Virus record (IMG/VR): IMGVR_UViG_3300045988_172277
Source: a virus
Length of the DNA: 19,905 bases
Reading direction: 5' to 3' (one strand)
This document shows, one piece after another, positions 1 through 19,905 of the stretch (the stretch's first letter is position 1; each line of letters begins with the position of its first letter). The notes below the pieces were generated by a model. The model was not told the origin of the DNA. It did no database searches and saw only the letters and a program-made list of their open reading frames with translations. A program made the translations under genes and the position numbers.

Positions 1-24
1 TTCAGACGTGTGCTCTTCCGATCT
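1..24. other. Illumina TruSeq adapter remnant (reverse complement of AGATCGGAAGAGCACACGTCTGAA); technical, not biological
   Basis: Exact 24-nt adapter string TTCAGACGTGTGCTCTTCCGATCT, mirrored at the other contig end. Confidence 0.97.
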
Positions 25-234
25 AAAAAATGCCTTAGCACATTTTTCGGGTGGTATTCTTCCCCCCATTAAGTAGTATCAAATACCATATAACTAAAAC
101 ATCTGTTCGTGTGGCCTAATCAATAATCATTATCCATTAACACTAATTTTCATATAATAATATTGCTCCATACCTTATCATAATATTTGTCGAAAATTTT
201 TATATATTTCTTTTAAATATTTAACCAAAAAGTA

Positions 235-263
235 TTGCATTTTCTGCTCAAATATTATATAAT
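235..263 (+). promoter_or_regulatory. Sigma-A-type early promoter inside left ITR (TTGCAT-17 bp-TATAAT)
   Basis: -35 TTGCAT at 235..240 and -10 TATAAT at 258..263 with 17-bp spacing, upstream of the first ITR gene. Confidence 0.6.
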
Positions 264-344
264 TAAATCATGGAAAGGGAAATAGATTAAATACAGAATT
301 CGACAAAATATGTCGAAAAATAAAATAAAGGGAGATTGGTTAAA

Positions 345-980
345 ATGTTAAAAAGAGACGTTAAAGAAATGGTTGAATATTTAATAAGTGAAAGAAAATC
401 TTTTAAGGTTACATTTGCTAATGGTAAAGTAGAAGTTATTGAATACAGAGGTTATTGTTGGGTATTAGGTAACAAAGGTTATAGTGATAAAGACTTAGTT
501 AAAAAAATGGTTAGGTTCCAAGACAATGTTAGTAAGTTCATAATCAGATTAGAAGTAATCGAAGAAGTAGAAGAATTAGAAGAAGTAGAAGAAATGAATT
601 ATGAAAAATCTTTAATAGAAGAAGTTGAAAATTTAAATGATGATTTATTCCAAGAAGAAGACATTGCATACTGTGAGGAAGCAATTGAAAGAGAAACACA
701 CAAAAAGGATAATGATATTATTACTAAATATGAGAATGATTTTTCTAATGGGTGCAATCAAAAATTAGTGTTCGGAAAAGGGTTAAATATAAGAGAAGAA
801 AGAGATATAAAAAACTATGGTAAAGAATTAAACAACATGAAAAAATATTTAGTTAATGTTTTAGGATTAGTTTTAAGTAAAGCACATAAAGTCATACAAA
901 CTTTAAATAGAAACAATAAAGTAATATTTAATAATGGTGAAATTAGTTTCTTTATAAAGATTAAGGAGGGGTGTAGTTAA
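345..980 (+). CDS. Hypothetical early protein with strongly acidic central region (ITR copy 1)
   Basis: The ORF track starts at TTG 336, only 1 nt after the SD AGGGAG (329..334). ATG 345 has about 10-nt spacing and is preferred. Central E/D-rich segment EEVEELEEVEEM...EEDIAYCEEAIERE. No recognisable family. Confidence 0.75.
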   Translation: MLKRDVKEMVEYLISERKSFKVTFANGKVEVIEYRGYCWVLGNKGYSDKDLVKKMVRFQDNVSKFIIRLEVIEEVEELEEVEEMNYEKSLIEEVENLNDDLFQEEDIAYCEEAIERETHKKDNDIITKYENDFSNGCNQKLVFGKGLNIREERDIKNYGKELNNMKKYLVNVLGLVLSKAHKVIQTLNRNNKVIFNNGEISFFIKIKEGCS

Positions 981-1144
981 TGAAAAGGTTGTTAAATTTA
1001 TGTAATAAATACAATTTAAAGTATAAAGGTAGAAACTCAAAAGGTTTCTATCTTGTATACAATGAAACTAATAGACATTTAATAAAAGGTTGTACGATTG
1101 AAAGTACAATATCAATAATTAATAAATATTATAAGGAGGGTTAA
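980..1144 (+). CDS. Hypothetical small protein, 54 aa (below ORF-track threshold; ITR copy 1)
   Basis: ATG overlaps the upstream stop (TAATG). SD AAGGAGGGG at 962..970. Hand translation MKRLLNLCNKYNLKYKGRNSKGFYLVYNETNRHLIKGCTIESTISIINKYYKEG. Fills an otherwise empty gap in a tightly packed operon. Confidence 0.55.
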   Translation: MKRLLNLCNKYNLKYKGRNSKGFYLVYNETNRHLIKGCTIESTISIINKYYKEG

Positions 1145-1146
1145 AA

Positions 1147-1341
1147 ATGACAAATCATGAAAAATTAATATTATATTTAGTGCAAGATAAAGTATCTTTT
1201 ATGATGGAAAATAATTGTGATAATAATTATATAGCTTTATATATTGATGATGTTATATCTAAATTACCTTCGGGTTATTCATGGGAATTATCTTCAATAT
1301 TATATAGAATGCACGATAATTTCTTAATGTATAAAGAATAA
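1147..1341 (+). CDS. Hypothetical small protein, 64 aa (ITR copy 1)
   Basis: ORF track entry. SD AAGGAGGG at 1133..1140 precedes the ATG. Confidence 0.7.
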   Translation: MTNHEKLILYLVQDKVSFMMENNCDNNYIALYIDDVISKLPSGYSWELSSILYRMHDNFLMYKE

Positions 1342-1354
1342 TAAAAATTGGGGG

Positions 1355-1711
1355 TTGAGGGTTATTAATATAAAATGTATAAACAATTATTTATTAAAAA
1401 ATTATTTAACTATAGGTAAACTTTATAATGTTGAACTGAAAGAAAATCGTGGATTTACAATTATAGATGATAGTGGCAATTTATTTGTTTATTGCTCTGA
1501 TAGGTTTACAATAGTAGATGACTTACCAATTGTAAGTAGTTTTAAATTAATAAAAGCAATAAATTCAGTTGGTATAAGTAAATATAAAATAATATCTAAG
1601 AACAGTAAATATGTTGTATTAGAAGAAACAAGTACAAGCTATTATGTTATAAATGACAAAGGTGCAAAGGGTAAATATCCAAAATCAAATTTTCAAATAG
1701 TAAAGGGGTAA
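1355..1711 (+). CDS. Hypothetical protein, 118 aa, with two tandem copies of a small domain; longer paralog of 18381..18551
   Basis: The ORF has no in-frame ATG at all. TTG 1355 directly abuts a G-rich SD-like run, so the start codon is uncertain. The first 56 nt lie inside the ITR. Confidence 0.55.
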   Translation: MRVINIKCINNYLLKNYLTIGKLYNVELKENRGFTIIDDSGNLFVYCSDRFTIVDDLPIVSSFKLIKAINSVGISKYKIISKNSKYVVLEETSTSYYVINDKGAKGKYPKSNFQIVKG

Positions 1712-3887: not shown

Positions 3888-4055
3888 TTATTTATTAAAT
3901 TTGTCTTCTAAGTTGTCCATGCGTGTGGAAATTTCTTTTAATGTAACATTTAAATTATTTAAAGCTTCGGTAAACTTACCATTATTTATAAACATTACAA
4001 TGCAACAAGTAATTGGAAAACCTACATTACTTATCATACTTACTATTTCTTCCAT
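3888..4055 (-). CDS. YvrJ-like small membrane protein, 55 aa, putative holin (below ORF-track threshold)
   Basis: Hand translation MEEIVSMISNVGFPITCCIVMFINNGKFTEALNNLNVTLKEISTRMDNLEDKFNK. The NVGFPI motif plus a hydrophobic segment resembles the YvrJ family. SD GAGAGGT. Position just before the ATPase parallels the phi29 lysis cassette. Confidence 0.5.
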   Translation of the reverse strand: MEEIVSMISNVGFPITCCIVMFINNGKFTEALNNLNVTLKEISTRMDNLEDKFNK

Positions 4056-4100: not shown

Positions 4101-4661
4101 TTAATAAATAACTTTTAAACTAATTTTTTTATTACTTAAAGTTATAGAATTATCAGTTACATTTGTGAACCTAAGACTTAATACATTTTCATTTTCTATT
4201 CTATAATCATATATCACACCATTTTCAATACCTTCACTAAAATAAATATTAATTATAGATGTTTGAGGTATGTTATCATCTAATGGTACCATAAAACATT
4301 TTGAAGTCTTTGCTTCAATTATTGCATTTCCTCCAGTAATTAGCGATAAATCCGAAAAACTTTTTAAAGAAAAATTTAAATTTTTACTTATTTCTGTAAT
4401 TAATTCATTTTTTAAATTGATAATTATATAGTTGTTTATTATTTCTTTTAAAGTCCCATCATCTTTCCATGTATTAAGTATTTCTTTTACGTTATCCTCT
4501 ACACCTTCATTTTTTATCCATTCTAGTATTTCTGATGAATTGTTACATAAATTAAAACATTCTTCTAATTTTTGAAAAAACTTGCATTTTAACTCTTCAT
4601 TTGTCATATCAGAAAAATTATATATCGTTTTTAATAAATCTTCTCTAAATCCTTTTATCAA
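4101..4661 (-). CDS. Hypothetical late protein, 186 aa (possible tail or receptor-binding accessory)
   Basis: TTG start, 7 nt after SD AAAGGGGG. Downstream of an internal promoter. No motif recognised. Confidence 0.6.
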   Translation of the reverse strand: MIKGFREDLLKTIYNFSDMTNEELKCKFFQKLEECFNLCNNSSEILEWIKNEGVEDNVKEILNTWKDDGTLKEIINNYIIINLKNELITEISKNLNFSLKSFSDLSLITGGNAIIEAKTSKCFMVPLDDNIPQTSIINIYFSEGIENGVIYDYRIENENVLSLRFTNVTDNSITLSNKKISLKVIY

Positions 4662-4711
4662 AGCTATACCCCCTTTTATACAATAAAATGTAAAATTTAC
4701 ATTTACACTTT

Positions 4712-4740
4712 ATTGTATGATAATATAATATTATTTGCAA
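4712..4740 (-). promoter_or_regulatory. Internal promoter TTGCAA-17 bp-TACAAT (late motif TCATACAATAAAGTGTA)
   Basis: On the - strand, -35 at 4735..4740 and -10 at 4712..4717. It shares a 17-nt identical block with the promoter at 12881..12909. Confidence 0.5.
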
Positions 4741-6885
4741 TTAATTTCCAGTCATTATTTTATTTTCGACCCAAGTACCAGGACTTCCACTTGTTGTACA
4801 TGTCCACCCATCAATGATAAATAAACTGCCTGCAGTACCTTGCTCAACTGGCCTATAATTTTTTACAATATCTCCTCTATACCATTCACCTTGAGTAGGA
4901 GGTGCTATATGAAAATCATTACTATTAGAAATACTATCATTTAATGTTTTTTTCATTTCATTGTTAAATATTTTTGTAGTTTCTAACGCACCATTGATAA
5001 ATATTCCATTGTTAGCATATAATCCACCGAATTTTTGCTCTATATTATTTTTAAATATACTGTTTTTAATATTTTTCAACGTCCAAATAGGTGATTTGGT
5101 ATTTGTGAAAACATTATTTGTAACAGTTAAATCAACTACATTATCCGTAAAAACTATTCCACTGATTAAACTTACAAATTTGTTACTATCAAATATTATA
5201 TTACTTTTTTCATTAAATGCTTTATTACAAAATATCCCTATACATTTTTGACCACCAGAAAGATTATTACCAACTACATATAACAAATTGTTTGATTTGT
5301 GTTCGGCTATTGTAGTATTATTTTGTCCTCTTTCTATTGTAAGTCTTAAAATATCATATGTCCTTTTAGTTGTCATTCTTGTTGTTTTAATTACATTTGT
5401 TATTTTTATTAGTTCATTATCAATACTAGCATAGTCCCCAACATCAATATTAAACTCTTTATAGTATGCTACTTCTATTGTAGTATCTGTAAGTGATAAA
5501 CTTGTTAAAGTTGCATAAGGTAAACTGGAAAAAGTATTACCAACTATTTCAACACCTTGACTTACATTTGATTTAAAATGTATTAACATTCCTTTTCCAT
5601 AAACTACATTGTTTTTTATTATAGCGTTTTTATAAGTGTCACCAGCTTGACTATCGTCTCCCATAATAATACATAAATCAGTATTTAATCCACCTTTGTT
5701 TATGATTGTATTGTCTAAGACTTGTGCTCCATATGAATTGTTTTGAATTGACACTCCCCCGAAGTTTCCGTTGCTATCAATTATTATTGTATTACCTATT
5801 AATTTATGATTTGCACCACCACTAAGATAAACTCCAAATTTGCTTTTTAGGTATGAGTTTCGACAAATACAATTGCTTGATTTCATATTGGTTAAATCTT
5901 CTTTTGTATCATCACCAAATTCTAAAGCACCATCTGCTGCGTTTAAACTTATACAATTATCAACAAGTATATCTGTTGCTTCCCTTGGGAAATAAAATGC
6001 GTTTTGTGCTTTTGTGTCATCAACTAATACTTTTCTAACTGTAATTCTAGTACAATAATTACCAACAATTCCATTACTTCCACTATTGTATATTTTACAG
6101 TTTTCTATTAACCCATCTGTTACATATTCTAACCAAATTGAACCAGCACTAGTTTTAGAGCAACCGATATTTTGTATTATACAATCTCTAATTAATATAT
6201 TATTTACATACATTAACTTAACACCACATATAAGTTGTGTGTAAGTTGGGTCTTTATAACCAGTTATTGTTAACTTTTCAATACTAATATTATTACAATA
6301 TTGGGATTGTGTCCCTTGAATATCAAAAACATTAAACTCTCCATTTACTTCTATTTCTGAAAAATTCCCTTGGATAGCTATATTATTTTTATTTCTTAAT
6401 TGTATAGGTTTGTTTATTTTTATTTTTATATTTCGAGGAAATAAAATTGTTGTATTGTCTTTTAAATTTAAACTTAAACTATCAACATCTAAAATATTAT
6501 CAGTTATATAATTATCTGCATATAAATTTACAATACTACCTATTTGCGAATTAATTTCACTAACTTTAGTATCTATTTGTGAATTAATTTCTTTTATTTT
6601 ATTTTCAATTTTATTTTTAGTATCTACAATTTCATTTTTATTTTCTTCAATTTTATTATTTAATTGAACTTGTATATTTTCATCAATTAATATCTTTCTT
6701 AGTTTCTCATATTCACTTTTAATTTTTTTCATTAATGCAACTAAATTTGTATCACTTAATTTAATTTTTTCTGATAGTTTTTCAATGTCTTTCTCTAATT
6801 TTTTCCATTGTTGAAAATCAATGGCATTTTGGTCTTGTAATTCTTTTACATTTTGTTGAATTTTGTTTACATCAATATCGCTCAT
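4741..6885 (-). CDS. Tailspike / pre-neck appendage-like protein with an N-terminal coiled coil and a right-handed beta-helix (pectin-lyase-like) domain
   Basis: 714 aa. Residues 1-125 are heptad-rich. Repeated beta-helix signatures follow (NCISLNA.DGALEFG, NSGSNGIVGN, IENCKIYN, VLDNTIIN). Position after the collar gene matches phi29 gp12. Confidence 0.75.
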   Translation of the reverse strand: MSDIDVNKIQQNVKELQDQNAIDFQQWKKLEKDIEKLSEKIKLSDTNLVALMKKIKSEYEKLRKILIDENIQVQLNNKIEENKNEIVDTKNKIENKIKEINSQIDTKVSEINSQIGSIVNLYADNYITDNILDVDSLSLNLKDNTTILFPRNIKIKINKPIQLRNKNNIAIQGNFSEIEVNGEFNVFDIQGTQSQYCNNISIEKLTITGYKDPTYTQLICGVKLMYVNNILIRDCIIQNIGCSKTSAGSIWLEYVTDGLIENCKIYNSGSNGIVGNYCTRITVRKVLVDDTKAQNAFYFPREATDILVDNCISLNAADGALEFGDDTKEDLTNMKSSNCICRNSYLKSKFGVYLSGGANHKLIGNTIIIDSNGNFGGVSIQNNSYGAQVLDNTIINKGGLNTDLCIIMGDDSQAGDTYKNAIIKNNVVYGKGMLIHFKSNVSQGVEIVGNTFSSLPYATLTSLSLTDTTIEVAYYKEFNIDVGDYASIDNELIKITNVIKTTRMTTKRTYDILRLTIERGQNNTTIAEHKSNNLLYVVGNNLSGGQKCIGIFCNKAFNEKSNIIFDSNKFVSLISGIVFTDNVVDLTVTNNVFTNTKSPIWTLKNIKNSIFKNNIEQKFGGLYANNGIFINGALETTKIFNNEMKKTLNDSISNSNDFHIAPPTQGEWYRGDIVKNYRPVEQGTAGSLFIIDGWTCTTSGSPGTWVENKIMTGN

Positions 6886-6895
6886 AATTTACCTC

Positions 6896-7549
6896 CTAAA
6901 AAACAAATAAGAATAAGTTTTCAAGTTCTTTAAATATCATTTGGTCTATGTTAATTAAAACATTTCTCCACTTTTCTAATAGTTCTGCACTTGATGTAAT
7001 ACCAATGTTACCTTGTGATATTAATTCATACTCTTCTGTGTTATTTGACTTATTTTTTATTGTATTGTTTGCATTAGACGTAGAATTATTTGTTGAATTA
7101 CTATTAGTTTTACTTGCTGATGTCATATATTTATCTAAATCATCAATCTTATTTTGAGGTGTATCATTAGCAATTGATAAATCATTACTGGTAGATGTGT
7201 TATCACTACTAGAAGTGGCTTGACTATTTCCTTCGCTTTCCCCGTTTAACTTTCTTATATAGCTTTCTCTTAAATCTTTATTTAACATAAAGTCTATGTC
7301 ATGACATCTTATTTCTGTTTCATAAAGTTGTTTGTACTTTGGATAAATATCATTAAGTGTAGAAATTAAATGTTGTTTAAAAATATTAATATTATCAAAC
7401 CCAATTTCATAAAACATAAAATGCTGAAAAAATTTTTCTTGAAAGTAAGGCTTTAACTCATTATTATACAAGTTGTAAGGTTGGTCAAATAAATTATAAG
7501 TATCATCTTTATAAATGTAATAAAGTTGTAATGTATATTTACTACTCAT
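6896..7549 (-). CDS. Putative lower collar protein (gp11 position) with an S/N/T-rich low-complexity insert
   Basis: Assigned by synteny only, immediately after the portal gene. Start moved to ATG 7549 (MSSKYT...), 6 nt after SD AGGAGG. The track start at 7573 lies inside the portal gene. Confidence 0.5.
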   Translation of the reverse strand: MSSKYTLQLYYIYKDDTYNLFDQPYNLYNNELKPYFQEKFFQHFMFYEIGFDNINIFKQHLISTLNDIYPKYKQLYETEIRCHDIDFMLNKDLRESYIRKLNGESEGNSQATSSSDNTSTSNDLSIANDTPQNKIDDLDKYMTSASKTNSNSTNNSTSNANNTIKNKSNNTEEYELISQGNIGITSSAELLEKWRNVLINIDQMIFKELENLFLFVF

Positions 7550-8405
7550 TATTTTCCTCCTTTTCCTCATCATCTTGATAATATTTAGTTATCATTTCTT
7601 TGTTAGGTAATACTTTTACATTTAATCCAAATTTTTTATTAATTTCTTCACATGCTTGAAGTCTATTTTTATACATTAACATTGCATTTGTACTAATAAA
7701 GTCATTATTAGAATTGATTTCATCAGTTAATAACCTTTCTTTTTTTTCAAAGTTGTTATTTAATGATAAAAAAGTTAATATTTCTCTTTCAAGTTCGTAT
7801 TTATATTCGTTTAATTTATCAGCTACATAAGGCGTCGGCATAGTTAACACTTCTAGTGCATTTTCTCCTAATCCAATATCCTTATTAGCTAAAATAAAAG
7901 GCTCAAAATTTTCTACCTTTTCAAATATTATTTCTAGTGATTTTTTGGTTTTTTCTGTCGCATTAATGAACCATGGAAATTTTTGTTGATTTATATTTGC
8001 TCTTATACACATTTCAACCTCTAACATTCTTTCAGCATAATTACTTATATAATGTCTTGTTGCTTTTGCTAAATCATTATTTCTAATTAAAACACAATCT
8101 TTTTTATTTATATAATTAATAGTTTTTATATAATTATAACCCGAAGTTATTACCTCTGTACTTTCCCCATTTATATTCATATTAGCACCAAAATTACAAG
8201 GTACTGAAATTAAACTCATATTATCATCATTGTTAACAAGACAAAGCCCATTTTCATATAGTGCATTTTCAATGTAACGAGAGTTCATTGTTTGAGGTAA
8301 ATTTTCCCATGTAAACATGTTTAATGCTAACATTTTATAATAATCATAAATTCTAGTAAAATTTATATTTTTATAAACTTCTATTGCTTGTTTATTTTTA
8401 CTCAT
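7542..8405 (-). CDS. Portal / upper collar connector protein, phi29 gp10-like
   Basis: FTWENLPQTMNSRYIENAL, TPYVADKLNEYKYELEREILTFLSLNNNFEKKERLLTDEINSNND and ACEEINKKFGLNVKV parallel gp10 (FEWENLPPTINPSFLEKSI, APYVVDKLNAQK...LEKKERMVTDEVSSNDE, ACEKINELYGLNVKV). Start set at ATG 8405, 7 nt after SD GGAGGTG. Confidence 0.9.
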   Translation of the reverse strand: MSKNKQAIEVYKNINFTRIYDYYKMLALNMFTWENLPQTMNSRYIENALYENGLCLVNNDDNMSLISVPCNFGANMNINGESTEVITSGYNYIKTINYINKKDCVLIRNNDLAKATRHYISNYAERMLEVEMCIRANINQQKFPWFINATEKTKKSLEIIFEKVENFEPFILANKDIGLGENALEVLTMPTPYVADKLNEYKYELEREILTFLSLNNNFEKKERLLTDEINSNNDFISTNAMLMYKNRLQACEEINKKFGLNVKVLPNKEMITKYYQDDEEKEENNE

Positions 8406-8409
8406 AATA

Positions 8410-9699
8410 TTACACCTCCACATTCCCTTGTAATTGACTTACTGAATAATCTCCAATATTTGCCCCATTGTCAACGTGCCAAATTGTTACACCTCTATTA
8501 AAAATATCCTTTATTTCTTCTAAATATTCATGAGGTATTTCATCACCTACAATGTTACAAGTATTTGTTTTAATAAAGTTAAAATAACGTCTTGAATTTA
8601 CATTAATTTTTTCCCACTTATTAACTTTATATCCATACTTAACAAAATAATCATAAATTCTATGCTTGTATCTAAAATCTAAACCAAATTCTATAATATC
8701 TATCTTTCTATTACTATTTACTAAATTAAATAGCGTGTCGTTACCACTTGTTTTTATACTATTTGGAGTGTTTAATAAGTCTGTTGTTTTAGCATTTGCT
8801 AATGATGATACTTCAAAATTTGATAATTTATTTTTTTCTTTTAATTGACTATTATTTAAATTATTTGACAATGTATTAAAATGTTGGTTTATTCCTGCTT
8901 GTGCTACTCCCATTGCTCCATTAACAACTCCACCAAAATTTAATGAAAGTAAACTTGCAATTGCACCTAAACCACTACTAATACCCTGCATGTAATTATT
9001 TGTTGTATTTTGTCTATAATTTAAACTATTAGTTGCTAACCCTTGCTTTAATGTCAAATCATTTTCTAACATTGCATTAATATTACCTTGGTTAAAACTT
9101 GCTGAACTTGTTGCTAAAAATTGAGAATACGCACTAGATAAAACTGGTAACATTAAAGGACTATTATTAACAATTCCGTTTAAATTACCATTATAATCTC
9201 CCTTATAACCATTTACATATAAATTATATTTACTTTCTGTTGCAATATTTGTTGCTTTTACTCTTAATTTTAATGTCTTATTTTCACATAGTTCGGGTTT
9301 TATAACAAGAGGAGTATTCATATAGTCAGTTATCATAAAATATCTGAAAGGAAATGTGTATAATTTTGGTTCAAAAGTGGGTAATCCATTATCGTTGTCG
9401 GGGAAAGTATTTAATTCGTATAGTTGTTTATCAATTGTATCAAATCCCGACATTCTGTAACACTTTGGTATGCCACCTTTTGGTGAGCCGTACCTATCAC
9501 TATCAAATGAACACTCAACTATTGTACTCATGTCGTCAACTTCAATAAAAGGGTTATATGTTAAACTTTGTATTGTATCAACAAATCCTAAATAAGTTGC
9601 ACTATTAATTTTTTCCCTAGGTATGCAATAGTAATAAAGTCCAACGGGAATATTTCCCATTACACTACTTTCAATATCATTTCCAGCTACAATACTCAT
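8410..9699 (-). CDS. Tail knob protein, C-terminal two thirds of a phi29 gp9-like protein (includes the Gly/Ala-rich hydrophobic loop)
   Basis: YFVKYGYKVNKWEKINVNSRRYFNFIKTNTCNIVGDEIPHEYLEEIKDIFNRGVTIWHVDN parallels the gp9 C-terminus ([36 protein letters not shown]...IFDNGITLWHTDN). GLYYYCIP resembles the gp9 CYYIHP. The loop GISSGLGAIASLLSLNFGGVVNGAMGVAQAG resembles the gp9 pore-forming loop. Confidence 0.85.
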   Translation of the reverse strand: MSIVAGNDIESSVMGNIPVGLYYYCIPREKINSATYLGFVDTIQSLTYNPFIEVDDMSTIVECSFDSDRYGSPKGGIPKCYRMSGFDTIDKQLYELNTFPDNDNGLPTFEPKLYTFPFRYFMITDYMNTPLVIKPELCENKTLKLRVKATNIATESKYNLYVNGYKGDYNGNLNGIVNNSPLMLPVLSSAYSQFLATSSASFNQGNINAMLENDLTLKQGLATNSLNYRQNTTNNYMQGISSGLGAIASLLSLNFGGVVNGAMGVAQAGINQHFNTLSNNLNNSQLKEKNKLSNFEVSSLANAKTTDLLNTPNSIKTSGNDTLFNLVNSNRKIDIIEFGLDFRYKHRIYDYFVKYGYKVNKWEKINVNSRRYFNFIKTNTCNIVGDEIPHEYLEEIKDIFNRGVTIWHVDNGANIGDYSVSQLQGNVEV

Positions 9700-9711
9700 T
9701 CATTACACCTC

Positions 9712-11274
9712 CTAATCATTTATTATACTTCTATATCTATAATTGTCATTTGGTGTTCTATCATTTTCCATTATATCTGTACCAGTTTGTTTTGCCTCTA
9801 TTACATGAATTGAACCATCATTATTTTTAGAAATAAACATAACTACGTGGCCATTATCTGTTTTACCCCTTGTGAATACCAAATCACCCATTTTTAAATT
9901 GTCATATGTTGTTTCTTTCCCATCTTGTATTTGTGTATATGTTGTCCTTGAAATTTTTATTCCATTTTCATTATACGCCCATTGACATAAACCCGAGCAA
10001 TCAGTTCCTTTATCACTGCCTAATGGGGGATAATTGCCACCCCATACATAGGGTTTTCCTAACAATTTTCTTGCACTTGCAACTACATTTTCTCTTATTG
10101 TAGATGTAGGTTGCTCTTGTCGATTATATGGACTAGGTATATAACCCATACCGTTATTATCTGTTATATAACCGCTACCGTCTAATATTTCAATTTTTTT
10201 GTAATTATAGTCTGCATTTAAAAATACATTAGCTTCGGCTTTTCTTCTATTTCTTAATCCTTGCTCAAATTGTGAACCTTGCATAATTACAGTTGTTTTC
10301 CAAACTTCGGCAATACTTTCCTTGCTATCACCATTGATATACTTTGTAAAAATAGAGCGACTTGTTAAACTTCCAGTATTATAATAAAAATCTACAAAAG
10401 CGTCAAACTCATTTTGTTTCATTTTATTCATGTCGAAACCATAAGAAACAAAAGTATCATGGACATATTTTGAATAACTTTTATACAAACTGTCGCCTAA
10501 TACCTCCGAAGCTTGTTGCTCTGTACATTTAGGAGCAAGTTGATTATAATGTGTACTATCATATTCACTTGTTGTACCATATCCAATAGTGAATGTTCCA
10601 TCCCCCAAATTGTAAGGAGTTGAAGAAAATCCTTCACTTTGTTTTATGAAGTAAATACCTAGCATACTCATGTACCCATCTTTGTATAATGTAGATTGAT
10701 TACCCGTTGACCCACCAGTTGAGCCACCACTAGAACCACCATTTATCATTCCAAGTCGTGTGGAACTTGTCAAAAAATAACACCCTTTATCGCTATAGTC
10801 ATAAGCATTATAAATTTCTTGTACTTTTAACTCACCAACTTCTAAATCTTCGGGTTCTAGCAAATTATCTAAATCTATATTACCGTTGGTGTCAAATCTA
10901 TTACAATGTTGTCTTTCTATATAACTCTCTATTTTATCAAAGCTGATATTAAAATAATAAGTTTGAAACACATCTAATTTTACTATAAATTTTGTACTGC
11001 GTTCTGTTACATACTCTTTATTTATTATGAAAAAATATTCCCATCTTGTCCCGTTATTCCATAAACAATAATTATAATTCATGCAATCATCAATATATTT
11101 ATCAATTGTTAAACTTCTTTCTTTTCTTAAATAAGTGCATTCTGTCATTACATATTTTGCTTTATTTAAAAACCAGTTTATTTGATTATTTATATTTGTA
11201 AAATTTACAGTATGATTATAATTAATGTCAAGTTCGGGAATACTACAAAAGAAAACTTTGCTTAAACGTGGCAT
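9712..11274 (-). CDS. Tail-associated peptidoglycan hydrolase: gp9-like tail-knob N-terminal domain, Gly/Ser linker, GH24-type phage lysozyme and NlpC/P60 endopeptidase
   Basis: The N-terminal ~170 aa (NNQINWFLNKAKYV...RWEYFFII...LDVFQTYYFNISFDKIESYIERQHC) parallel the gp9 N-terminus (SNQYNWFNSKSRVY...KWFYAFVT...[23 protein letters not shown]). Linker GGSSGGSTGGSTG. Lysozyme motif QSEGF..PY.LGDGTFTIGYG...GLRNRRKAE. NlpC/P60 motif GKPYVWGG...GTDCSGL...GHVVMF. Confidence 0.85.
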   Translation of the reverse strand: MPRLSKVFFCSIPELDINYNHTVNFTNINNQINWFLNKAKYVMTECTYLRKERSLTIDKYIDDCMNYNYCLWNNGTRWEYFFIINKEYVTERSTKFIVKLDVFQTYYFNISFDKIESYIERQHCNRFDTNGNIDLDNLLEPEDLEVGELKVQEIYNAYDYSDKGCYFLTSSTRLGMINGGSSGGSTGGSTGNQSTLYKDGYMSMLGIYFIKQSEGFSSTPYNLGDGTFTIGYGTTSEYDSTHYNQLAPKCTEQQASEVLGDSLYKSYSKYVHDTFVSYGFDMNKMKQNEFDAFVDFYYNTGSLTSRSIFTKYINGDSKESIAEVWKTTVIMQGSQFEQGLRNRRKAEANVFLNADYNYKKIEILDGSGYITDNNGMGYIPSPYNRQEQPTSTIRENVVASARKLLGKPYVWGGNYPPLGSDKGTDCSGLCQWAYNENGIKISRTTYTQIQDGKETTYDNLKMGDLVFTRGKTDNGHVVMFISKNNDGSIHVIEAKQTGTDIMENDRTPNDNYRYRSIIND

Positions 11275-11321: not shown

Positions 11322-12374
11322 TTATTCTTTTACTACAAATTTTACACAATTTACAAAGTTACAACTTGCAACAATTCCCCATCTATTGAACCAAACATTT
11401 GTGTATAAAGCTTGAGGGTTTCTAAAAGTTTCTGAACTGTTTAAAGTTTCCCATATTTGGATTGCTTCTTTATCACAAATTATACATTGAGTTTCTGTAT
11501 CTTCGGCATAAGTGTAAGTAGAAGTAGAAGTAGACTTTGTGCATTTTTCGAAATAATCGATTGGTAATACATGAAGATTAATTTCATCATAACTTACATT
11601 AAATGCTTGTGCTAATAATTGAACGTCCATAACTGCAAGTAAGTCAGTTGGGACAAAGCAAACTAACTCATTAGGTTTACTGTATGTCATTACACCTTGA
11701 CCATTATAATTATTAGATAAAAATTTCATCTTTAATATATAAGATTTTATTGCAGTAACTAAACTTTGTGCTTTAGCTTGTAATGTTAATTTATCATATT
11801 CAGTTTTCCCAATTTTGACTTCTGCACCTTTTATGTGAGCAAGTGCATGTTTTACCAATAAAAAGTCATCATATTCAGCAGAATTTAAAGGTGATTGTAA
11901 AATTCTTGATGTTAACTCACTTAATCCATTTTCATTTCTAAACGCACCCTTTAATTCCTCGTCAGAAATAGTTGCTTGATATTGCAATTGTTTATTTTCA
12001 CTATAATATTCAACCGTTACATTTGGTGCTTGTCTGCTTAATAAATCACTTGCTAAATTTGTTGCAGTTGTTTGCCTCGTCCTGTCTTTACCCTTAACTA
12101 TATCAACAAAAATACTTTCAATTGATTTTCCGTATGGCAATATCCCTTTTTTGAATAGCTTGTACGGATTTTCATAAGCCTTATTAAAAAATCTTTGTTT
12201 AGCAACTTGGTTTGTAAGAACTGTTACAAACTCGTTTTTTGCAGTTGGATAAGATGAAATAATATCACCAATTTTGTGCATATTTGCTTTTGTAATATCA
12301 CCTATTCTGTCTTTAAATTCTTGACTTGTTGCACTTGCAAGTGCTTTTGTAAAAGTAACATTATCTAATGCCAT
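11322..12374 (-). CDS. Major capsid protein, phi29 gp8-like
   Basis: [28 protein letters not shown] parallels the gp8 [37 protein letters not shown] parallels [39 protein letters not shown] parallels [30 protein letters not shown]. Confidence 0.9.
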   Translation of the reverse strand: [350 protein letters not shown]

Positions 12375-12930: not shown

Positions 12931-13620
12931 TTAATTGTATAATAATTCTTTTATTTCTTCATCTTTTTTGTTTTTAATAATTTGTTTTCTTAAACATTCT
13001 ACTCTTAAATAAACTGTGTGTCTTGTAAAATTTTTTCCTTGCTTTGTTTTATAACCATGTTTGGTTAAATAATCAGCTATTTGACTAAAACTAAACCCAT
13101 CTGATAACATATATAAAATTATTTTATTAATTTCATAATAATAAGAATTTCCACAATCTAATATTTCATTTATTGCAGTTTCTAAAGTTTCAAACTGATA
13201 TTCATCTTCTTTCCCAGTATACCTATCTAGTAAATTTTCTCTTTCTACGTCCCCATTATTTTCTAAAATGTAATCTGTAGAATAATCAGCACCAAACTCA
13301 TTAAATTTTGATTTTCTATCATTATCTCTTAATTTGCTAGCTAGTTCTTTAAAAATTACTGTTGCTACAAAAGTATTTGCACTAGATATTTCATAATTTA
13401 GTTGAGGCCATACCTTGCTCAATTTTACACAAACAATTGATACACAATCTTCATAATCTAACCTTAATCTATTGAAACCACTTTTATATTTATTATATAC
13501 TACTTTTACTCTTGCATATATATACTTCATATTTTCATTACAAAATTCATTAAAATCTTCATATATTTTTCTTTCCTTTAATTCTCCAAATTTATTTTTT
13601 CTTAATATAACCTTGCTCAT
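12931..13620 (-). CDS. Sigma-70-family-like (ECF/group-5-like) transcription factor candidate
   Basis: Region-2-like DYEDCVSIVCVKLSKVWPQLNYE.SSANTFVATVIFKELASKLRDNDRKSK. Region-4-like HTH INKIILYMLSDGFSFSQIADYL...FTRHTVYLRVECLRKQI. Start moved to ATG 13620, about 10 nt after SD AAGGGGA, because track TTG 13629 is 1 nt from the SD. Confidence 0.5.
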   Translation of the reverse strand: MSKVILRKNKFGELKERKIYEDFNEFCNENMKYIYARVKVVYNKYKSGFNRLRLDYEDCVSIVCVKLSKVWPQLNYEISSANTFVATVIFKELASKLRDNDRKSKFNEFGADYSTDYILENNGDVERENLLDRYTGKEDEYQFETLETAINEILDCGNSYYYEINKIILYMLSDGFSFSQIADYLTKHGYKTKQGKNFTRHTVYLRVECLRKQIIKNKKDEEIKELLYN

Positions 13621-13646
13621 ATTTTCCAATCCCCTTTTTATTTTTA

Positions 13647-18380: not shown

Positions 18381-18551
18381 TTATTCTTCAACTATTTCGA
18401 AATCACATTCATGATATAACCACTCATAACCACTATCATCAACAATAGCGTAAAAGTCAATAGTTTTATCTATCACATCATAAACTTTACCAAATGTTAA
18501 ATAATTTTTTAATAAATAATTGTTTATACATTTTATATTAATAACCCTCAA
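18381..18551 (-). CDS. Hypothetical protein, 56 aa; short paralog of 1355..1711 (below ORF-track threshold)
   Basis: Same TTG and first 56 nt as 1355..1410 because that part lies inside the ITR. Hand translation MRVINIKCINNYLLKNYLTFGKVYDVIDKTIDFYAIVDDSGYEWLYHECDFEIVEE. Start codon uncertain, as for the paralog. Confidence 0.5.
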   Translation of the reverse strand: MRVINIKCINNYLLKNYLTFGKVYDVIDKTIDFYAIVDDSGYEWLYHECDFEIVEE

Positions 18552-18564
18552 CCCCCAATTTTTA

Positions 18565-18759
18565 TTATTCTTTATACATTAAGAAATTATCGTGCATTCT
18601 ATATAATATTGAAGATAATTCCCATGAATAACCCGAAGGTAATTTAGATATAACATCATCAATATATAAAGCTATATAATTATTATCACAATTATTTTCC
18701 ATCATAAAAGATACTTTATCTTGCACTAAATATAATATTAATTTTTCATGATTTGTCAT
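18565..18759 (-). CDS. Hypothetical small protein, 64 aa (ITR copy 2 of 1147..1341)
   Basis: Identical mirror copy. Confidence 0.7.
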   Translation of the reverse strand: MTNHEKLILYLVQDKVSFMMENNCDNNYIALYIDDVISKLPSGYSWELSSILYRMHDNFLMYKE

Positions 18760-18761
18760 TT

Positions 18762-18926
18762 TTAACCCTCCTTATAATATTTATTAATTATTGATATTGT
18801 ACTTTCAATCGTACAACCTTTTATTAAATGTCTATTAGTTTCATTGTATACAAGATAGAAACCTTTTGAGTTTCTACCTTTATACTTTAAATTGTATTTA
18901 TTACATAAATTTAACAACCTTTTCAT
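18762..18926 (-). CDS. Hypothetical small protein, 54 aa (ITR copy 2 of 980..1144)
   Basis: Identical mirror copy. Confidence 0.55.
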   Translation of the reverse strand: MKRLLNLCNKYNLKYKGRNSKGFYLVYNETNRHLIKGCTIESTISIINKYYKEG

Positions 18927-19561
18927 TAACTACACCCCTCCTTAATCTTTATAAAGAAACTAATTTCACCATTATTAAATATTACTTTATTGTTTCTATT
19001 TAAAGTTTGTATGACTTTATGTGCTTTACTTAAAACTAATCCTAAAACATTAACTAAATATTTTTTCATGTTGTTTAATTCTTTACCATAGTTTTTTATA
19101 TCTCTTTCTTCTCTTATATTTAACCCTTTTCCGAACACTAATTTTTGATTGCACCCATTAGAAAAATCATTCTCATATTTAGTAATAATATCATTATCCT
19201 TTTTGTGTGTTTCTCTTTCAATTGCTTCCTCACAGTATGCAATGTCTTCTTCTTGGAATAAATCATCATTTAAATTTTCAACTTCTTCTATTAAAGATTT
19301 TTCATAATTCATTTCTTCTACTTCTTCTAATTCTTCTACTTCTTCGATTACTTCTAATCTGATTATGAACTTACTAACATTGTCTTGGAACCTAACCATT
19401 TTTTTAACTAAGTCTTTATCACTATAACCTTTGTTACCTAATACCCAACAATAACCTCTGTATTCAATAACTTCTACTTTACCATTAGCAAATGTAACCT
19501 TAAAAGATTTTCTTTCACTTATTAAATATTCAACCATTTCTTTAACGTCTCTTTTTAACAT
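18926..19561 (-). CDS. Hypothetical acidic early protein (ITR copy 2 of 345..980)
   Basis: Identical mirror copy. Start adjusted to the ATG, as for copy 1. Confidence 0.75.
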   Translation of the reverse strand: MLKRDVKEMVEYLISERKSFKVTFANGKVEVIEYRGYCWVLGNKGYSDKDLVKKMVRFQDNVSKFIIRLEVIEEVEELEEVEEMNYEKSLIEEVENLNDDLFQEEDIAYCEEAIERETHKKDNDIITKYENDFSNGCNQKLVFGKGLNIREERDIKNYGKELNNMKKYLVNVLGLVLSKAHKVIQTLNRNNKVIFNNGEISFFIKIKEGCS

Positions 19562-19642
19562 TTTAACCAATCTCCCTTTATTTTATTTTTCGACATATTT
19601 TGTCGAATTCTGTATTTAATCTATTTCCCTTTCCATGATTTA

Positions 19643-19671
19643 ATTATATAATATTTGAGCAGAAAATGCAA
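19643..19671 (-). promoter_or_regulatory. Sigma-A-type early promoter inside the right ITR (mirror of 235..263)
   Basis: Identical mirror copy, TTGCAT-17 bp-TATAAT reading inward. Confidence 0.6.
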
Positions 19672-19881
19672 TACTTTTTGGTTAAATATTTAAAAGAAAT
19701 ATATAAAAATTTTCGACAAATATTATGATAAGGTATGGAGCAATATTATTATATGAAAATTAGTGTTAATGGATAATGATTATTGATTAGGCCACACGAA
19801 CAGATGTTTTAGTTATATGGTATTTGATACTACTTAATGGGGGGAAGAATACCACCCGAAAAATGTGCTAAGGCATTTTTT

Positions 19882-19905
19882 AGATCGGAAGAGCACACGT
19901 CTGAA
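19882..19905. other. Illumina TruSeq adapter remnant AGATCGGAAGAGCACACGTCTGAA; technical, not biological
   Basis: Exact adapter string, including the A-tail base. Confidence 0.97.

What the first reader, a model, noticed from the sequence alone, without database searches (positions are those of the whole stretch)
8410..11274. Tail-knob (gp9-like) gene split by a dual peptidoglycan-hydrolase module
The first ~170 aa of the 520-aa ORF match the N-terminal domain of phi29 tail-knob gp9. The next ORF (429 aa) matches the rest of gp9, from about CYYIHP to the C-terminus and including the Gly/Ala-rich membrane-penetrating loop. Between them the first ORF carries a Gly/Ser linker, a GH24 lysozyme domain and an NlpC/P60 endopeptidase domain. 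The two ORFs are in the same reading frame. They are separated only by TAG-GAG-GTG-TAA-TGA, which is all three stop codons plus an embedded SD (GGAGGTG), followed by ATG. This looks like a fixed, engineered-looking split rather than a sequencing error or readthrough. In phi29 the tail hydrolase gp13 is a separate protein. Here the hydrolases appear tethered directly to a knob subunit fragment.
Basis: partly seen in the sequence, partly recalled or inferred. Interest (0 to 1): 0.7.

Follow-up and report, generated by a model that had tools for sequence, protein, structure and literature searches.

The report
Two-piece phage tail knob carrying wall-cutters
In this small phi29-like gut phage the tail-knob protein is made as two separate proteins, and the first one also carries two cell-wall-cutting enzymes; the split is real, but the same layout has been annotated in Clostridium perfringens phages since 2011-2012, so this is a new variant and not a new kind of thing.

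Summary
On the minus strand, ORF1 (9712-11274, 520 aa) has a phi29 gp9 N-domain (aa 1-174), a Gly/Ser linker, a GH24 lysozyme and an NlpC/P60 endopeptidase. ORF2 (8410-9699, 429 aa) is the rest of gp9, including the hydrophobic channel loop. The junction reads TAG-GAG-GTG-TAA-TGA-ATG, in frame.

The split is genuine. The exact ORF1 protein sits on 9 contigs. More than 120 protein clusters at 44-95% identity keep the same two genes. Clostridium perfringens podophages (Guelinviridae) have the same pair, and phiCP7R virion mass spectrometry found both proteins.

The shared frame and the two extra stops look like chance. Relatives have gaps of 1 or 13 nt, or an ATGA overlap, so the frame is not conserved. 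GGAGG 6-9 nt before the start codon is this phage's usual ribosome-binding site.

New here: NlpC/P60 replaces the M23 peptidase of the Clostridium phages, in an abundant uncultured clade seen in gut and faecal samples. A survey shows the knob N-domain carrying many different hydrolase sets. One lineage has an unsplit 812-aa knob with a lysozyme inserted at the same site.

[quoted passage not shown] This does the job of phi29 gp13 without being related to it. Verdict: new variant of a known kind, modest interest.

The parts
9712..11274 (-). ORF1, 520 aa: knob N-fragment fused to two peptidoglycan hydrolases (the predicted virion entry lysin)
   Evidence: The exact sequence is on 9 contigs and sits in a 277-member cluster that includes GenBank DAJ19562.1.
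10753..11274 (-). ORF1 aa 1-174: gp9-type N-terminal beta-sandwich domain, the part of the knob that meets the lower collar
   Evidence: phmmer against 5fb4 residues 21-171, E 2e-9. Foldseek against 5fb4/5fb5, E about 5e-7. PHROG 2248 positions 3-212. The AlphaFold2 model has block-mean pLDDT 72-91 over aa 1-110. The domain aligns collinearly with PZA, B103, Karezi and Athos gp9.
10678..10752 (-). ORF1 aa 175-199: Gly/Ser-rich flexible linker (INGGSSGGSTGGSTGNQ...)
   Evidence: Read directly from the sequence. pLDDT is below 50 here. Its length and sequence vary among relatives.
10195..10677 (-). ORF1 aa 200-360: GH24 (T4/P22-type) lysozyme domain
   Evidence: Pfam PF00959, E 4e-18. PDB endolysins 7m5i and 9kbq. 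The catalytic Glu (E214) is invariant and T229 nearly invariant across 31 homologues.
10090..10194 (-). ORF1 aa 361-395: short connector between the two enzymes (motif I..L.G.G.ITDN.G.GYIP)
   Evidence: The motif is kept in both the NlpC/P60-type and M23-type relatives and in the unsplit 812-aa protein.
9715..10089 (-). ORF1 aa 396-520: NlpC/P60 cysteine endopeptidase domain
   Evidence: Pfam PF00877, E 1e-19. PDB 8er5 and the diffocin hub-hydrolase 8v3w. Foldseek hits RipB, RipA and Acd24020. C426 (in the DCSG motif), H476 and E493 are invariant across 31 homologues.
9700..9714 (-). Junction: ORF1 stop TAG (9712-9714), Shine-Dalgarno GGAGGTG (9706-9712), then TAATGA as the spacer before ORF2's ATG
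   Evidence: The junction is identical in three close relatives and differs in more distant ones. GGAGG 6-9 nt upstream of the start is common across this genome.
8410..9699 (-). ORF2, 429 aa: the remainder of the knob protein, corresponding to roughly gp9 residue 190 to the C-terminus
   Evidence: Pfam PF20934 at 84.7 bits. phmmer against 5fb4, E 3e-23. hhalign probability 99.9. PHROG 2248 positions 193-585. All listed homologues are 408-436 aa.
8875..8991 (-). ORF2 aa 237-275: hydrophobic Gly/Ala-rich segment, the counterpart of the gp9 L loop / channel loop
   Evidence: This is the most hydrophobic stretch of ORF2. It aligns with the gp9 loop region at about residues 416-460. The AlphaFold2 model puts long helices here, at low confidence.
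11322..12374 (-). Major head protein gene, immediately upstream
   Evidence: PHROG 2006, E 2e-62. The same gene order is seen in phiCPV4 and phi24R.
7542..8423 (-). Upper collar / connector gene, overlapping the end of ORF2 by 14 nt
   Evidence: PHROG 2038, E 3e-61.
6896..7573 (-). Lower collar gene, the expected docking partner of the knob N-domain
   Evidence: PHROG 5472, E 7e-36. In phi29 the lower collar binds the gp9 beta-barrel domain (PMC6542822).

Best explanation
The tail knob of this phi29-like phage is built from two gene products instead of one. ORF1 supplies the N-terminal beta-sandwich, which docks on the lower collar. ORF2 supplies the tube, the tip and the membrane-inserting channel loop. 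By analogy with the phi29 and Andhra knob hexamers, six copies of each would form the knob.

The break falls exactly where the one-piece knob proteins leave the N-domain through an extended connecting loop. At that point ORF1 continues into a flexible Gly/Ser linker, a GH24 muramidase and an NlpC/P60 endopeptidase, and then stops. The virion would therefore carry up to six tethered two-enzyme modules around the knob. These would cut glycan strands and peptide stems of the thick Gram-positive wall so the knob can reach the membrane. That is the job done by the separately encoded gp13 in phi29.

The stop, Shine-Dalgarno site and ATG form an ordinary coupled gene boundary, which should favour roughly equal amounts of the two pieces.

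Shown here: the homology of each piece, the exact split point, the conservation of the split, the intact catalytic residues, and (in relatives) the presence of both proteins in virions. Inferred: the 6+6 stoichiometry, how the two pieces hold together, the enzymes' bond specificity and their role in entry.
For: - **Collinear pieces.** ORF1 aa 1-174 joined to ORF2 aligns end to end with four one-piece gp9 proteins. The junction falls at about PZA gp9 residues 186-190. PHROG 2248 is covered at 3-212 by ORF1 and 193-585 by ORF2.
- **Stable split.** The exact ORF1 is on 9 contigs. The 120 best ORF1 clusters, at 44-95% identity, carry the same domains; the full-length ones are 504-538 aa and a few shorter entries look truncated. 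ORF2 homologues are 408-436 aa. Four sampled relatives keep the order head protein, ORF1, ORF2, connector.
- **Cultured relatives.** phiCPV4, phi24R and CpV1 have the same pair. phiCP7R virion mass spectrometry found a 59.2-kDa lysozyme-peptidase and a 46.3-kDa tail protein (PMC3362512).
- **Co-evolving partners.** Identity of the N-domain tracks that of ORF2 (98/98, 47/50, 48/57, 40/50 %). The enzyme domains can be much more conserved than either, at 73-82%.
- **Intact active sites.** E214, C426, H476 and E493 are invariant in 31 homologues.
- **No gp13 homologue.** Pfam and PHROG scans of the other ORFs found no other peptidoglycan hydrolase in the window.
Against: - No structure or proteomics exists for this phage or its close clade. 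Virion location rests on relatives that are only 28-30% identical.
- The ORF2 monomer model is poor (mean pLDDT 52). Its Foldseek hit to gp9 is weak (E 0.013).
- ORF1 aa 112-193 are modelled with low confidence, so the contact between the two pieces is not shown.
- Pfam Caud_tail_N is just below its cut-off for ORF1.
- The stoichiometry could be lower than six.
- No endolysin was recognised elsewhere in the genome, so ORF1 might also, or instead, act in lysis.
Confidence: 0.8

Rival explanations
1. ORF1 and ORF2 are really one gene. The stop would be a sequencing or assembly error, or it would be bypassed by programmed readthrough or frameshifting to give one knob protein with internal enzymes.
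For: The two ORFs share a frame in the window. A one-piece 812-aa protein with a lysozyme inserted at the same site does exist in another lineage, on two contigs.
Against: - Readthrough would have to pass three in-frame stops.
- The exact protein recurs on 9 contigs, and the junction is identical in three further assemblies.
- In more distant relatives the two genes are in different frames, with gaps of 1 or 13 nt or an ATGA overlap.
- The 120 best ORF1 homologues are at most 538 aa, and the 120 best hits of each ORF2-family search are at most 436 aa.
- phiCP7R virions contain two separate bands of 59 and 46 kDa.
Confidence: 0.02
2. ORF1 is mainly, or also, the phage's lysis enzyme (endolysin). 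The knob-like N-domain would serve as a tether or regulator and not as an essential structural part of the knob.
For: Pfam and PHROG scans of all other ORFs recognised no amidase, lysozyme or other endolysin. A 55-aa ORF (3888-4055) has a strongly hydrophobic N-terminus and could be a holin. Lysozyme plus peptidase is also a common endolysin architecture. JGI names the protein simply 'cell wall-associated NlpC family hydrolase'.
Against: - ORF2 lacks the N-domain that one-piece knobs use to bind the collar, so some protein must supply it.
- N-domain identity tracks ORF2 identity.
- The homologous protein is a virion component in phiCP7R, and phiCPV4, CpV1 and phi24R also carry a separate amidase or endolysin gene.
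- A dual role is not excluded.
Confidence: 0.15
3. The two-gene state is ancestral, and phi29's one-piece gp9 arose by fusion. On this view nothing was 'split' by an inserted hydrolase module; the enzymes were simply added to the C-terminus of a free-standing N-domain protein.
For: Free-standing N-domain proteins exist. The survey found 29 of 150 representatives with the N-domain and none of the other four modelled domains; some of these are contig-end fragments. Phi29-like phages of Gram-negative hosts have separate N and C parts (PMC11476376). A 230-aa Cp-1 'tail protein' matches the N-domain.
Against: - One-piece knobs are the majority (76 of 150) and are spread across families.
- The 812-aa protein has a lysozyme inside an unbroken knob at the same site.
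- No rooted phylogeny was made, so the direction of change is not settled. This rival concerns history only and not how the knob works.
Confidence: 0.25

Closest known systems
Guelinviridae 'lysozyme-peptidase' plus short 'tail protein' pair (phiCPV4 gp20/gp19, phiCP7R, phiZP2, phi24R gp12/gp13, CpV1, CPS2)
   Same: The gene order is the same: head protein, then N-domain-linker-GH24 lysozyme-peptidase, then a tail protein of about 400 aa, with the connector further downstream. The split point is the same, and so are the Gly-rich linker and the short connector motif after the lysozyme. ORF1 matches PHROG 16615 at E 4e-59 and ORF2 matches PHROG 16740 at E 2e-71. Both proteins were found in phiCP7R virions.
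   Different: The C-terminal enzyme is NlpC/P60 (a cysteine peptidase) and not M23 (a zinc peptidase). Alignment to those proteins stops at about aa 372-389. Identity is only 25-30%. The window has no amidase endolysin or holin gene between the tail protein and the connector. The terminal repeats are 1,431 bp against 25-28 bp. The host is unknown, probably a gut Firmicute.
phi29 / PZA gp9 tail knob protein (PDB 5FB4, 5FB5; Pfam PF16838 + PF20934)
   Same: ORF1 aa 1-174 plus ORF2 together cover gp9 from end to end in the same order, including the hydrophobic loop and the conserved C-terminal block.
   Different: gp9 is one 599-aa chain with no enzyme domains. Here the chain is broken at about gp9 residues 186-190 and two hydrolases are attached to the first piece. 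The region matching gp9 residues 190-320 is shorter in ORF2.
Tail-tip entry lysins of picoviruses: phi29 gp13 (Phage_lysozyme2 + M23) and Andhra gp10 / P68 gp11 (glycosidase + CHAP)
   Same: All are virion-borne two-enzyme modules, one glycosidase and one peptidase joined by flexible linkers, and are thought to open the Gram-positive wall ahead of the knob (PMC11476376; PMC9710869).
   Different: Those lysins are separate proteins at the distal tip; Andhra has two copies of gp10. Here the module is fused to a knob subunit fragment, so up to six copies could sit at the collar-proximal end. There is no sequence similarity between ORF1 and PZA gp13 (E 0.87), so the relationship is analogy and not homology.
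Two-protein knobs of phi29-like phages that infect Gram-negative hosts (Phanie gp9/gp10, Astrid, DU_PP_III)
   Same: The knob is divided into an N-part protein and a C-part protein at about the same place, with extra domains at the break (PMC11476376).
   Different: In those phages the extra domains are Ig-like, non-enzymatic, and sit at the N-terminus of the second protein. Here they are enzymes at the C-terminus of the first protein.

Membership tests
phi29 gp9-type tail knob protein | N-terminal tail-tube-like beta-sandwich domain (Pfam PF16838) | tested here: met
   ORF1 17-163 aligns to 5fb4 residues 21-171, E 2e-9. Foldseek E is about 5e-7. Pfam gives 25.4 bits against a 27-bit cut-off for the window protein, but the domain is recorded for nearly all of its homologues.
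phi29 gp9-type tail knob protein | C-terminal knob body (Pfam PF20934), including the conserved C-terminal block | tested here: met
   ORF2 scores 84.7 bits against a 27-bit cut-off. phmmer against 5fb4 gives E 3e-23. hhalign probability is 99.9.
phi29 gp9-type tail knob protein | Both parts on one polypeptide of about 500-650 aa | tested here: not met
   The two parts are separate ORFs with three in-frame stops between them. The split is conserved across the clade.
phi29 gp9-type tail knob protein | Hydrophobic membrane-inserting loop inside the tube | tested here: inconclusive
   A Gly/Ala-rich hydrophobic stretch at aa 237-275 aligns with the gp9 loop region. The structural model there is of low confidence.
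phi29 gp9-type tail knob protein | [quoted passage not shown] | not testable with these tools
   No multimer prediction was available and there are no particles to examine. A lower-collar gene is present.
Guelinviridae 'lysozyme-peptidase' structural protein (PHROG 16615) | gp9 N-domain, then a Gly-rich linker, then a GH24 lysozyme | tested here: met
   PHROG 16615 gives E 4e-59 over aa 5-385. tblastn to phiCPV4, CPS2 and phi24R covers aa 4-381.
Guelinviridae 'lysozyme-peptidase' structural protein (PHROG 16615) | C-terminal Peptidase_M23 domain | tested here: not met
   The window protein has NLPC_P60 (E 1e-19) and no M23 hit. phiCPV4 gp20 has M23 at E 4e-31.
Guelinviridae 'lysozyme-peptidase' structural protein (PHROG 16615) | Followed directly by a separate short knob-C 'tail protein' gene | tested here: met
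   ORF2 starts 12 nt downstream. The same arrangement is seen in phiCPV4, phi24R and CpV1.
Guelinviridae 'lysozyme-peptidase' structural protein (PHROG 16615) | Present in purified virions | not testable with these tools
   This is shown only for phiCP7R (PMC3362512).
GH24 phage lysozyme (PF00959) | Catalytic Glu in the E-G-x5-Y motif, followed by T-x-G-x-G | tested here: met
   The window sequence is SEGFSSTPYNLGDGTFTIGYG. E214 is invariant and T229 nearly invariant. The second acidic residue (D225) is offset from the position of T4 lysozyme D20 and is not in the 90%-or-more conserved list, so it is left open.
NlpC/P60 endopeptidase (PF00877) | Cys-His-(His/Glu) catalytic triad | tested here: met
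   C426 (in DCSG), H476 and E493 are invariant in 31 homologues. Bond specificity was not tested.
phi29 gp13 tail-associated lysin | Phage_lysozyme2 (PF18013) N-domain and M23 C-domain on a free-standing protein | tested here: not met
   PZA gp13 matches PF18013. BLASTP of ORF1 against gp13 gives E 0.87. The role is analogous but ORF1 is not a member of this family.

The most novel reading that the evidence does not exclude
The boundary between the knob N-domain and the rest of the knob may be a general plug-in site, used many times independently in phi29-like phages. Enzyme cassettes (GH24, GH73, NlpC/P60 and M23, in different orders) and Ig-like domains are inserted there. The gene has been cut at this site repeatedly, because the C-part re-joins the N-domain by completing its beta-sheet. 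In the window's clade this knob-borne module may also be the only peptidoglycan hydrolase the phage encodes, serving both entry and lysis.
Probability: 0.3. Interest if true: 0.55.

Novelty: new variant of a known kind. Interest (0 to 1): 0.33.

Why it matters
- **Where picoviruses mount their wall-cutting enzymes.** Besides the tail tip (phi29 gp13, Andhra gp10) and the receptor-binding-protein anchor (Andhra gp6), enzymes can sit on a detachable fragment of the knob subunit itself.
- **A permissive break point.** The survey suggests the site tolerates insertion, gene fission and cassette exchange. That is useful for engineering phi29-type tails and for mining entry lysins matched to particular cell-wall chemotypes.
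- **Annotation.** These proteins are currently labelled 'Major tail protein', 'Lysozyme' or 'NlpC family hydrolase'. The short 'tail protein' next to them is only two thirds of a knob subunit.
- **Limits.** None of this overturns current understanding. The architecture was already recorded for Clostridium perfringens phages.

Tried and rejected
- **Megablast against 50,697 phage records:** no match for the region. There is no close cultured relative, and no phage record covers 80% or more of ORF1 in tblastn.
- **ORF2 structure:** the AlphaFold2 model built from a 30-sequence alignment was poor (pLDDT 52). Its Foldseek hits to gp9 were only E 0.013, so I relied on sequence and profile evidence instead.
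- **Homology to phi29 gp13:** rejected for ORF1 (E 0.87). Only the M23 domain of the Clostridium phage proteins resembles the gp13 C-terminus (E 1e-6).
- **Readthrough or sequencing error:** rejected; see the first rival explanation.
- **Meaning in the same frame and triple stop:** rejected, because neither is conserved and the Shine-Dalgarno site is generic.
- **Host identification through GTDB genome contigs:** the only hit was one 2.2-kb contig binned with a faecal 'Bacilli bacterium' MAG at 50% identity, which is a weak hint only.
- **Literature:** searches for an explicit description of a hydrolase-split knob in Guelinviridae, or of an NlpC/P60 knob fusion, found none. The 2024 review describes split knobs only for Gram-negative-infecting relatives.


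Full report
**1. The observation**

The window is a complete phi29-like genome of 19,905 bp with about 25% G+C. Most of its genes are on the minus strand. They include a type-B DNA polymerase, major head protein, connector, lower collar, a beta-helix appendage protein and the packaging ATPase.

The two ORFs of the finding are at 9712-11274 (520 aa) and 8410-9699 (429 aa) on the minus strand. The coding strand at the boundary reads AAT GAT TAG GAG GTG TAA TGA ATG AGT. That is 12 nt between stop and start, in the same frame, with GGAGGTG overlapping the stop.

**2. What the two proteins are**

ORF1 has three recognisable parts.
- Aa 17-163 align to residues 21-171 of the phi29 knob protein gp9 (PDB 5fb4, E 2e-9). 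Pfam Caud_tail_N is just under its cut-off at 25.4 bits against 27.
- Aa 211-347 match Pfam Phage_lysozyme, the GH24 family (E 4e-18).
- Aa 406-495 match NLPC_P60 (E 1e-19).

An AlphaFold2 model built from 31 homologues has mean pLDDT 79. The N-domain core, the lysozyme and the peptidase are modelled confidently, and aa 112-193 (including the Gly/Ser linker) are disordered. Foldseek with that model finds gp9 (5fb4/5fb5, E about 5e-7, 141 columns), NlpC/P60 enzymes (RipB, RipA, Acd24020, SagA) and GH24 endolysins.

ORF2 matches Pfam phi29_gp9_C (84.7 bits, cut-off 27) and gp9 residues 337-595 (E 3e-23). A profile-profile comparison maps ORF2 108-428 onto PZA gp9 322-598 with probability 99.9.

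One knob profile, PHROG 2248 with 590 positions, is covered at 3-212 by ORF1 and at 193-585 by ORF2. When ORF1 aa 1-174 is joined to ORF2, the product aligns collinearly with one-piece knob proteins of PZA, B103, Karezi and Athos. The join falls at about PZA residues 186-190 (...SKSIMH | GTAGEAE...). ORF2's AGND...GLYYYCIP lies over gp9's AGE...PLCYYIHP.

ORF2 therefore has no N-domain of its own, and ORF1 supplies exactly the missing part. The ORF2 monomer model was poor (pLDDT 52). Its best Foldseek hits were still gp9, but only at E 0.013, so I do not rely on it.

**3. The split is real and old, and the junction is ordinary**

- The exact ORF1 sequence occurs on 9 contigs. It belongs to a 277-member cluster that includes GenBank DAJ19562.1, 'MAG TPA: Major tail protein [Podoviridae sp. 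ct1Pw90]'.
- The 120 best ORF1 homologues (44-95% identity) carry the same domains. The full-length ones are 504-538 aa, and a few shorter entries look truncated.
- ORF2 homologues are 408-436 aa.
- Relatives at 45-62% identity keep the order head protein, ORF1, ORF2, connector.

The boundaries in those relatives differ. L005 and L006 have a 13-nt gap, L007 and phiCPV4 a 1-nt gap, and phi24R an ATGA overlap, so the frames are not shared. Only close relatives have the same 12-nt spacer.

GGAGG 6-9 nt before the start codon is the usual ribosome-binding site in this genome, and ORF1's own reads TTAGGAGGTATAAAAATG. On this A+T-rich strand a stop codon has a frequency of about 0.10. From that I calculate roughly a 5% chance of two extra stops in a four-codon spacer. 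The 'all three stops, same frame' pattern is best read as coincidence, and the boundary as a normal coupled one.

**4. It is already known in cultured phages**

tblastn of ORF1 finds the 'putative lysozyme-peptidase' of Clostridium perfringens podophages (family Guelinviridae) over aa 4-372 to 4-389 at 26-30% identity. GenBank notes for phiCPV4 gp20 and phi24R gp12 list a PHA00380 tail domain, a lysozyme domain and Peptidase_M23. The next gene in each is a 'tail protein' of about 400 aa.

Volozhantsev et al. 2012 (PMC3362512) described these domains and remarked that the tail protein is much shorter than phi29 gp9. They identified both proteins (59.2 and 46.3 kDa) in purified phiCP7R virions by mass spectrometry.

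I found no paper stating outright that the knob is split by the hydrolase module in this family. A 2024 review describes two-protein knobs only for phi29-like phages of Gram-negative hosts, where Ig-like domains sit at the break (PMC11476376).

**5. What is different here**

The C-terminal enzyme is NlpC/P60 and not M23. No phage record in the collection covers 80% or more of ORF1.

The clade is abundant in metagenomes. The traceable samples are from the gut: Hadza gut samples and a faecal MAG. The host is unknown; a single contig binned with a 'Bacilli bacterium' MAG is the only hint.

From my own knowledge, and not tested here: C. perfringens peptidoglycan has LL-DAP with a glycine bridge, which suits an M23 glycyl endopeptidase. 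NlpC/P60 enzymes typically cut gamma-D-Glu-mDAP in directly cross-linked walls. The peptidase swap may therefore follow the host's wall type.

**6. A wider survey**

I searched 1.84 billion representative proteins with ORF1 aa 1-178. This gave 2,350 hits at E 0.001 or better. I classified the best 150 with local profiles and checked ten examples against Pfam.

| Architecture | Count among best 150 |
|---|---|
| One-piece knob (N + C) | 76 |
| N-domain with none of the other four modelled domains (some are contig-end fragments; Pfam finds GH73 or M23 in several) | 29 |
| N + lysozyme + M23 | 12 |
| N + lysozyme | 11 |
| N + lysozyme + NlpC/P60 (the window's type) | 8 by my count of the rows; the call's automatic tally gives 6 |
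| N + NlpC/P60 + lysozyme (reversed order) | 2 |
| N + NlpC/P60 (at least one, P0344, also has a GH73 glucosaminidase) | 5 |
| N + M23 | 5 |
| One-piece knob + C-terminal M23 | 3 |
| One-piece knob with a lysozyme inserted at the same site (812 aa) | 1 |

The 812-aa protein occurs as two sequence variants on two contigs. One contig is a 16.6-kb phi29-like genome. Its sequence resembles the Clostridium-phage type with the M23 domain and the gene boundary deleted, so it could be either an intermediate or a re-fusion.

A 230-aa Cp-1 'tail protein' also matches the N-domain structurally.

Within the window's clade, N-domain identity follows ORF2 identity (98/98, 47/50, 48/57, 40/50 %). The enzyme domains can be far more conserved, at 73-82% in P0060 and P0062. 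This fits two co-evolving structural partners plus a cassette that is exchanged or evolves more slowly.

**7. How it most likely works**

In phi29 the lower collar binds the beta-barrel domain of gp9 (PMC6542822). In the Andhra knob the N-terminal beta-sandwich is joined to the distal part by an extended connecting loop. The chain later returns to complete the N-domain's beta-sheet (PMC9710869).

The break in the window falls where that connecting loop begins. I infer the following steps.
1. Six ORF1 N-domains and six ORF2 chains assemble into one knob, held together by the same sheet completion.
2. The Gly/Ser linker leads the two enzymes to the outside.
3. The enzymes open the wall locally during entry, as gp13 does for phi29.

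ORF1 is not related to gp13 (E 0.87). The catalytic residues E214, C426, H476 and E493 are invariant.

The stoichiometry, the contacts between the pieces, the bond specificity and the role in entry are all inferences.

**8. Rivals**

- Readthrough or sequencing error is effectively excluded (sections 3 and 4).
- A role for ORF1 in lysis cannot be excluded. No endolysin was recognised anywhere else in the genome, and a 55-aa hydrophobic ORF could be a holin.
- Whether fission followed insertion, or fusion produced the one-piece knobs, needs a rooted phylogeny.

**9. Verdict**

The junction has no special design. The architecture is a variant (NlpC/P60, uncultured gut clade) of one recorded for Guelinviridae since 2011-2012. 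The survey adds a modest general point: the end of the knob N-domain is a recurrent site for domain insertion and gene fission.

Noticed in passing
window 1-1431 and 18475-19905: A perfect 1,431-bp inverted terminal repeat duplicates three ORFs (214, 54 and 64 aa) at both ends. The Guelinviridae relatives have annotated repeats of 25-28 bp. In a 98%-identical relative (L016) the contig carries these genes at one end only and stops about 90 nt inside the repeat at the other end. That fits an assembler collapsing a real repeat, but it does not prove the repeat is real.
   Followed up: partly
whole window; candidate holin at 3888-4055 (-): Pfam and PHROG scans of all other ORFs found no endolysin, amidase or annotated holin. 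ORF1 is the only peptidoglycan hydrolase recognised. The 55-aa ORF at 3888-4055 has a strongly hydrophobic N-terminus. phiCPV4, CpV1 and phi24R each have an annotated amidase/endolysin and/or holin gene between the tail protein and the connector; this phage does not.
   Followed up: partly
window 4101-6885 (-) compared with L016 11718-16802: The tail-appendage region is swapped between near-identical genomes. The window has a 714-aa beta-helix protein and a 186-aa protein. L016 and L017 have a 504-aa beta-helix protein, a 638-aa GDSL-lipase-like protein and a 512-aa protein that hits Anti-Pycsar_Apyc1 / Lactamase_B.
   Followed up: no
window 12931-13629 (-): A 232-aa ORF between the DNA polymerase and head genes has weak Pfam hits to Recombinase (E 1e-6) and Sigma70_r2. 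These are unusual for a phi29-like phage. The ORF is conserved in relatives.
   Followed up: no
L013 546-2984 and L014 8001-10439: An 812-aa one-piece knob protein has a GH24 lysozyme inserted between the N-domain and the knob body and carries no peptidase. It occurs in two metagenomic contigs, one of which is a 16.6-kb phi29-like genome.
   Followed up: partly
L002 (CpV1) 4936-5183 and L003 (phi24R) 5545-5554: Two probable GenBank annotation problems. In CpV1 the 248-nt 'gap' before the tail protein encodes the conserved start of that protein; tblastn matches query aa 6-411 up to record position 11799, but the annotated CDS ends at 11565 on that side. In phi24R the annotated gp12 range contains an internal stop; the true end is a TGA overlapping gp13's ATG.
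   Followed up: partly
proteins P0060, P0062 and P0084 compared with window ORF1: ORF1 homologues are mosaics. The lysozyme and NlpC/P60 domains are 73-82% identical to the window's while the knob N-domain is only 44-47% identical, which suggests exchange of the enzyme cassette between knob lineages.
   Followed up: partly
BFVD hit Q38003 (Streptococcus phage Cp-1, 230 aa): A 230-aa Cp-1 'tail protein' matches the ORF1 model (E 6e-9). I take the matched region to be the N-domain, because the neighbouring hits are knob ('major tail') proteins. This hints that Cp-1 also makes the knob N-part as a separate protein.
   Followed up: no
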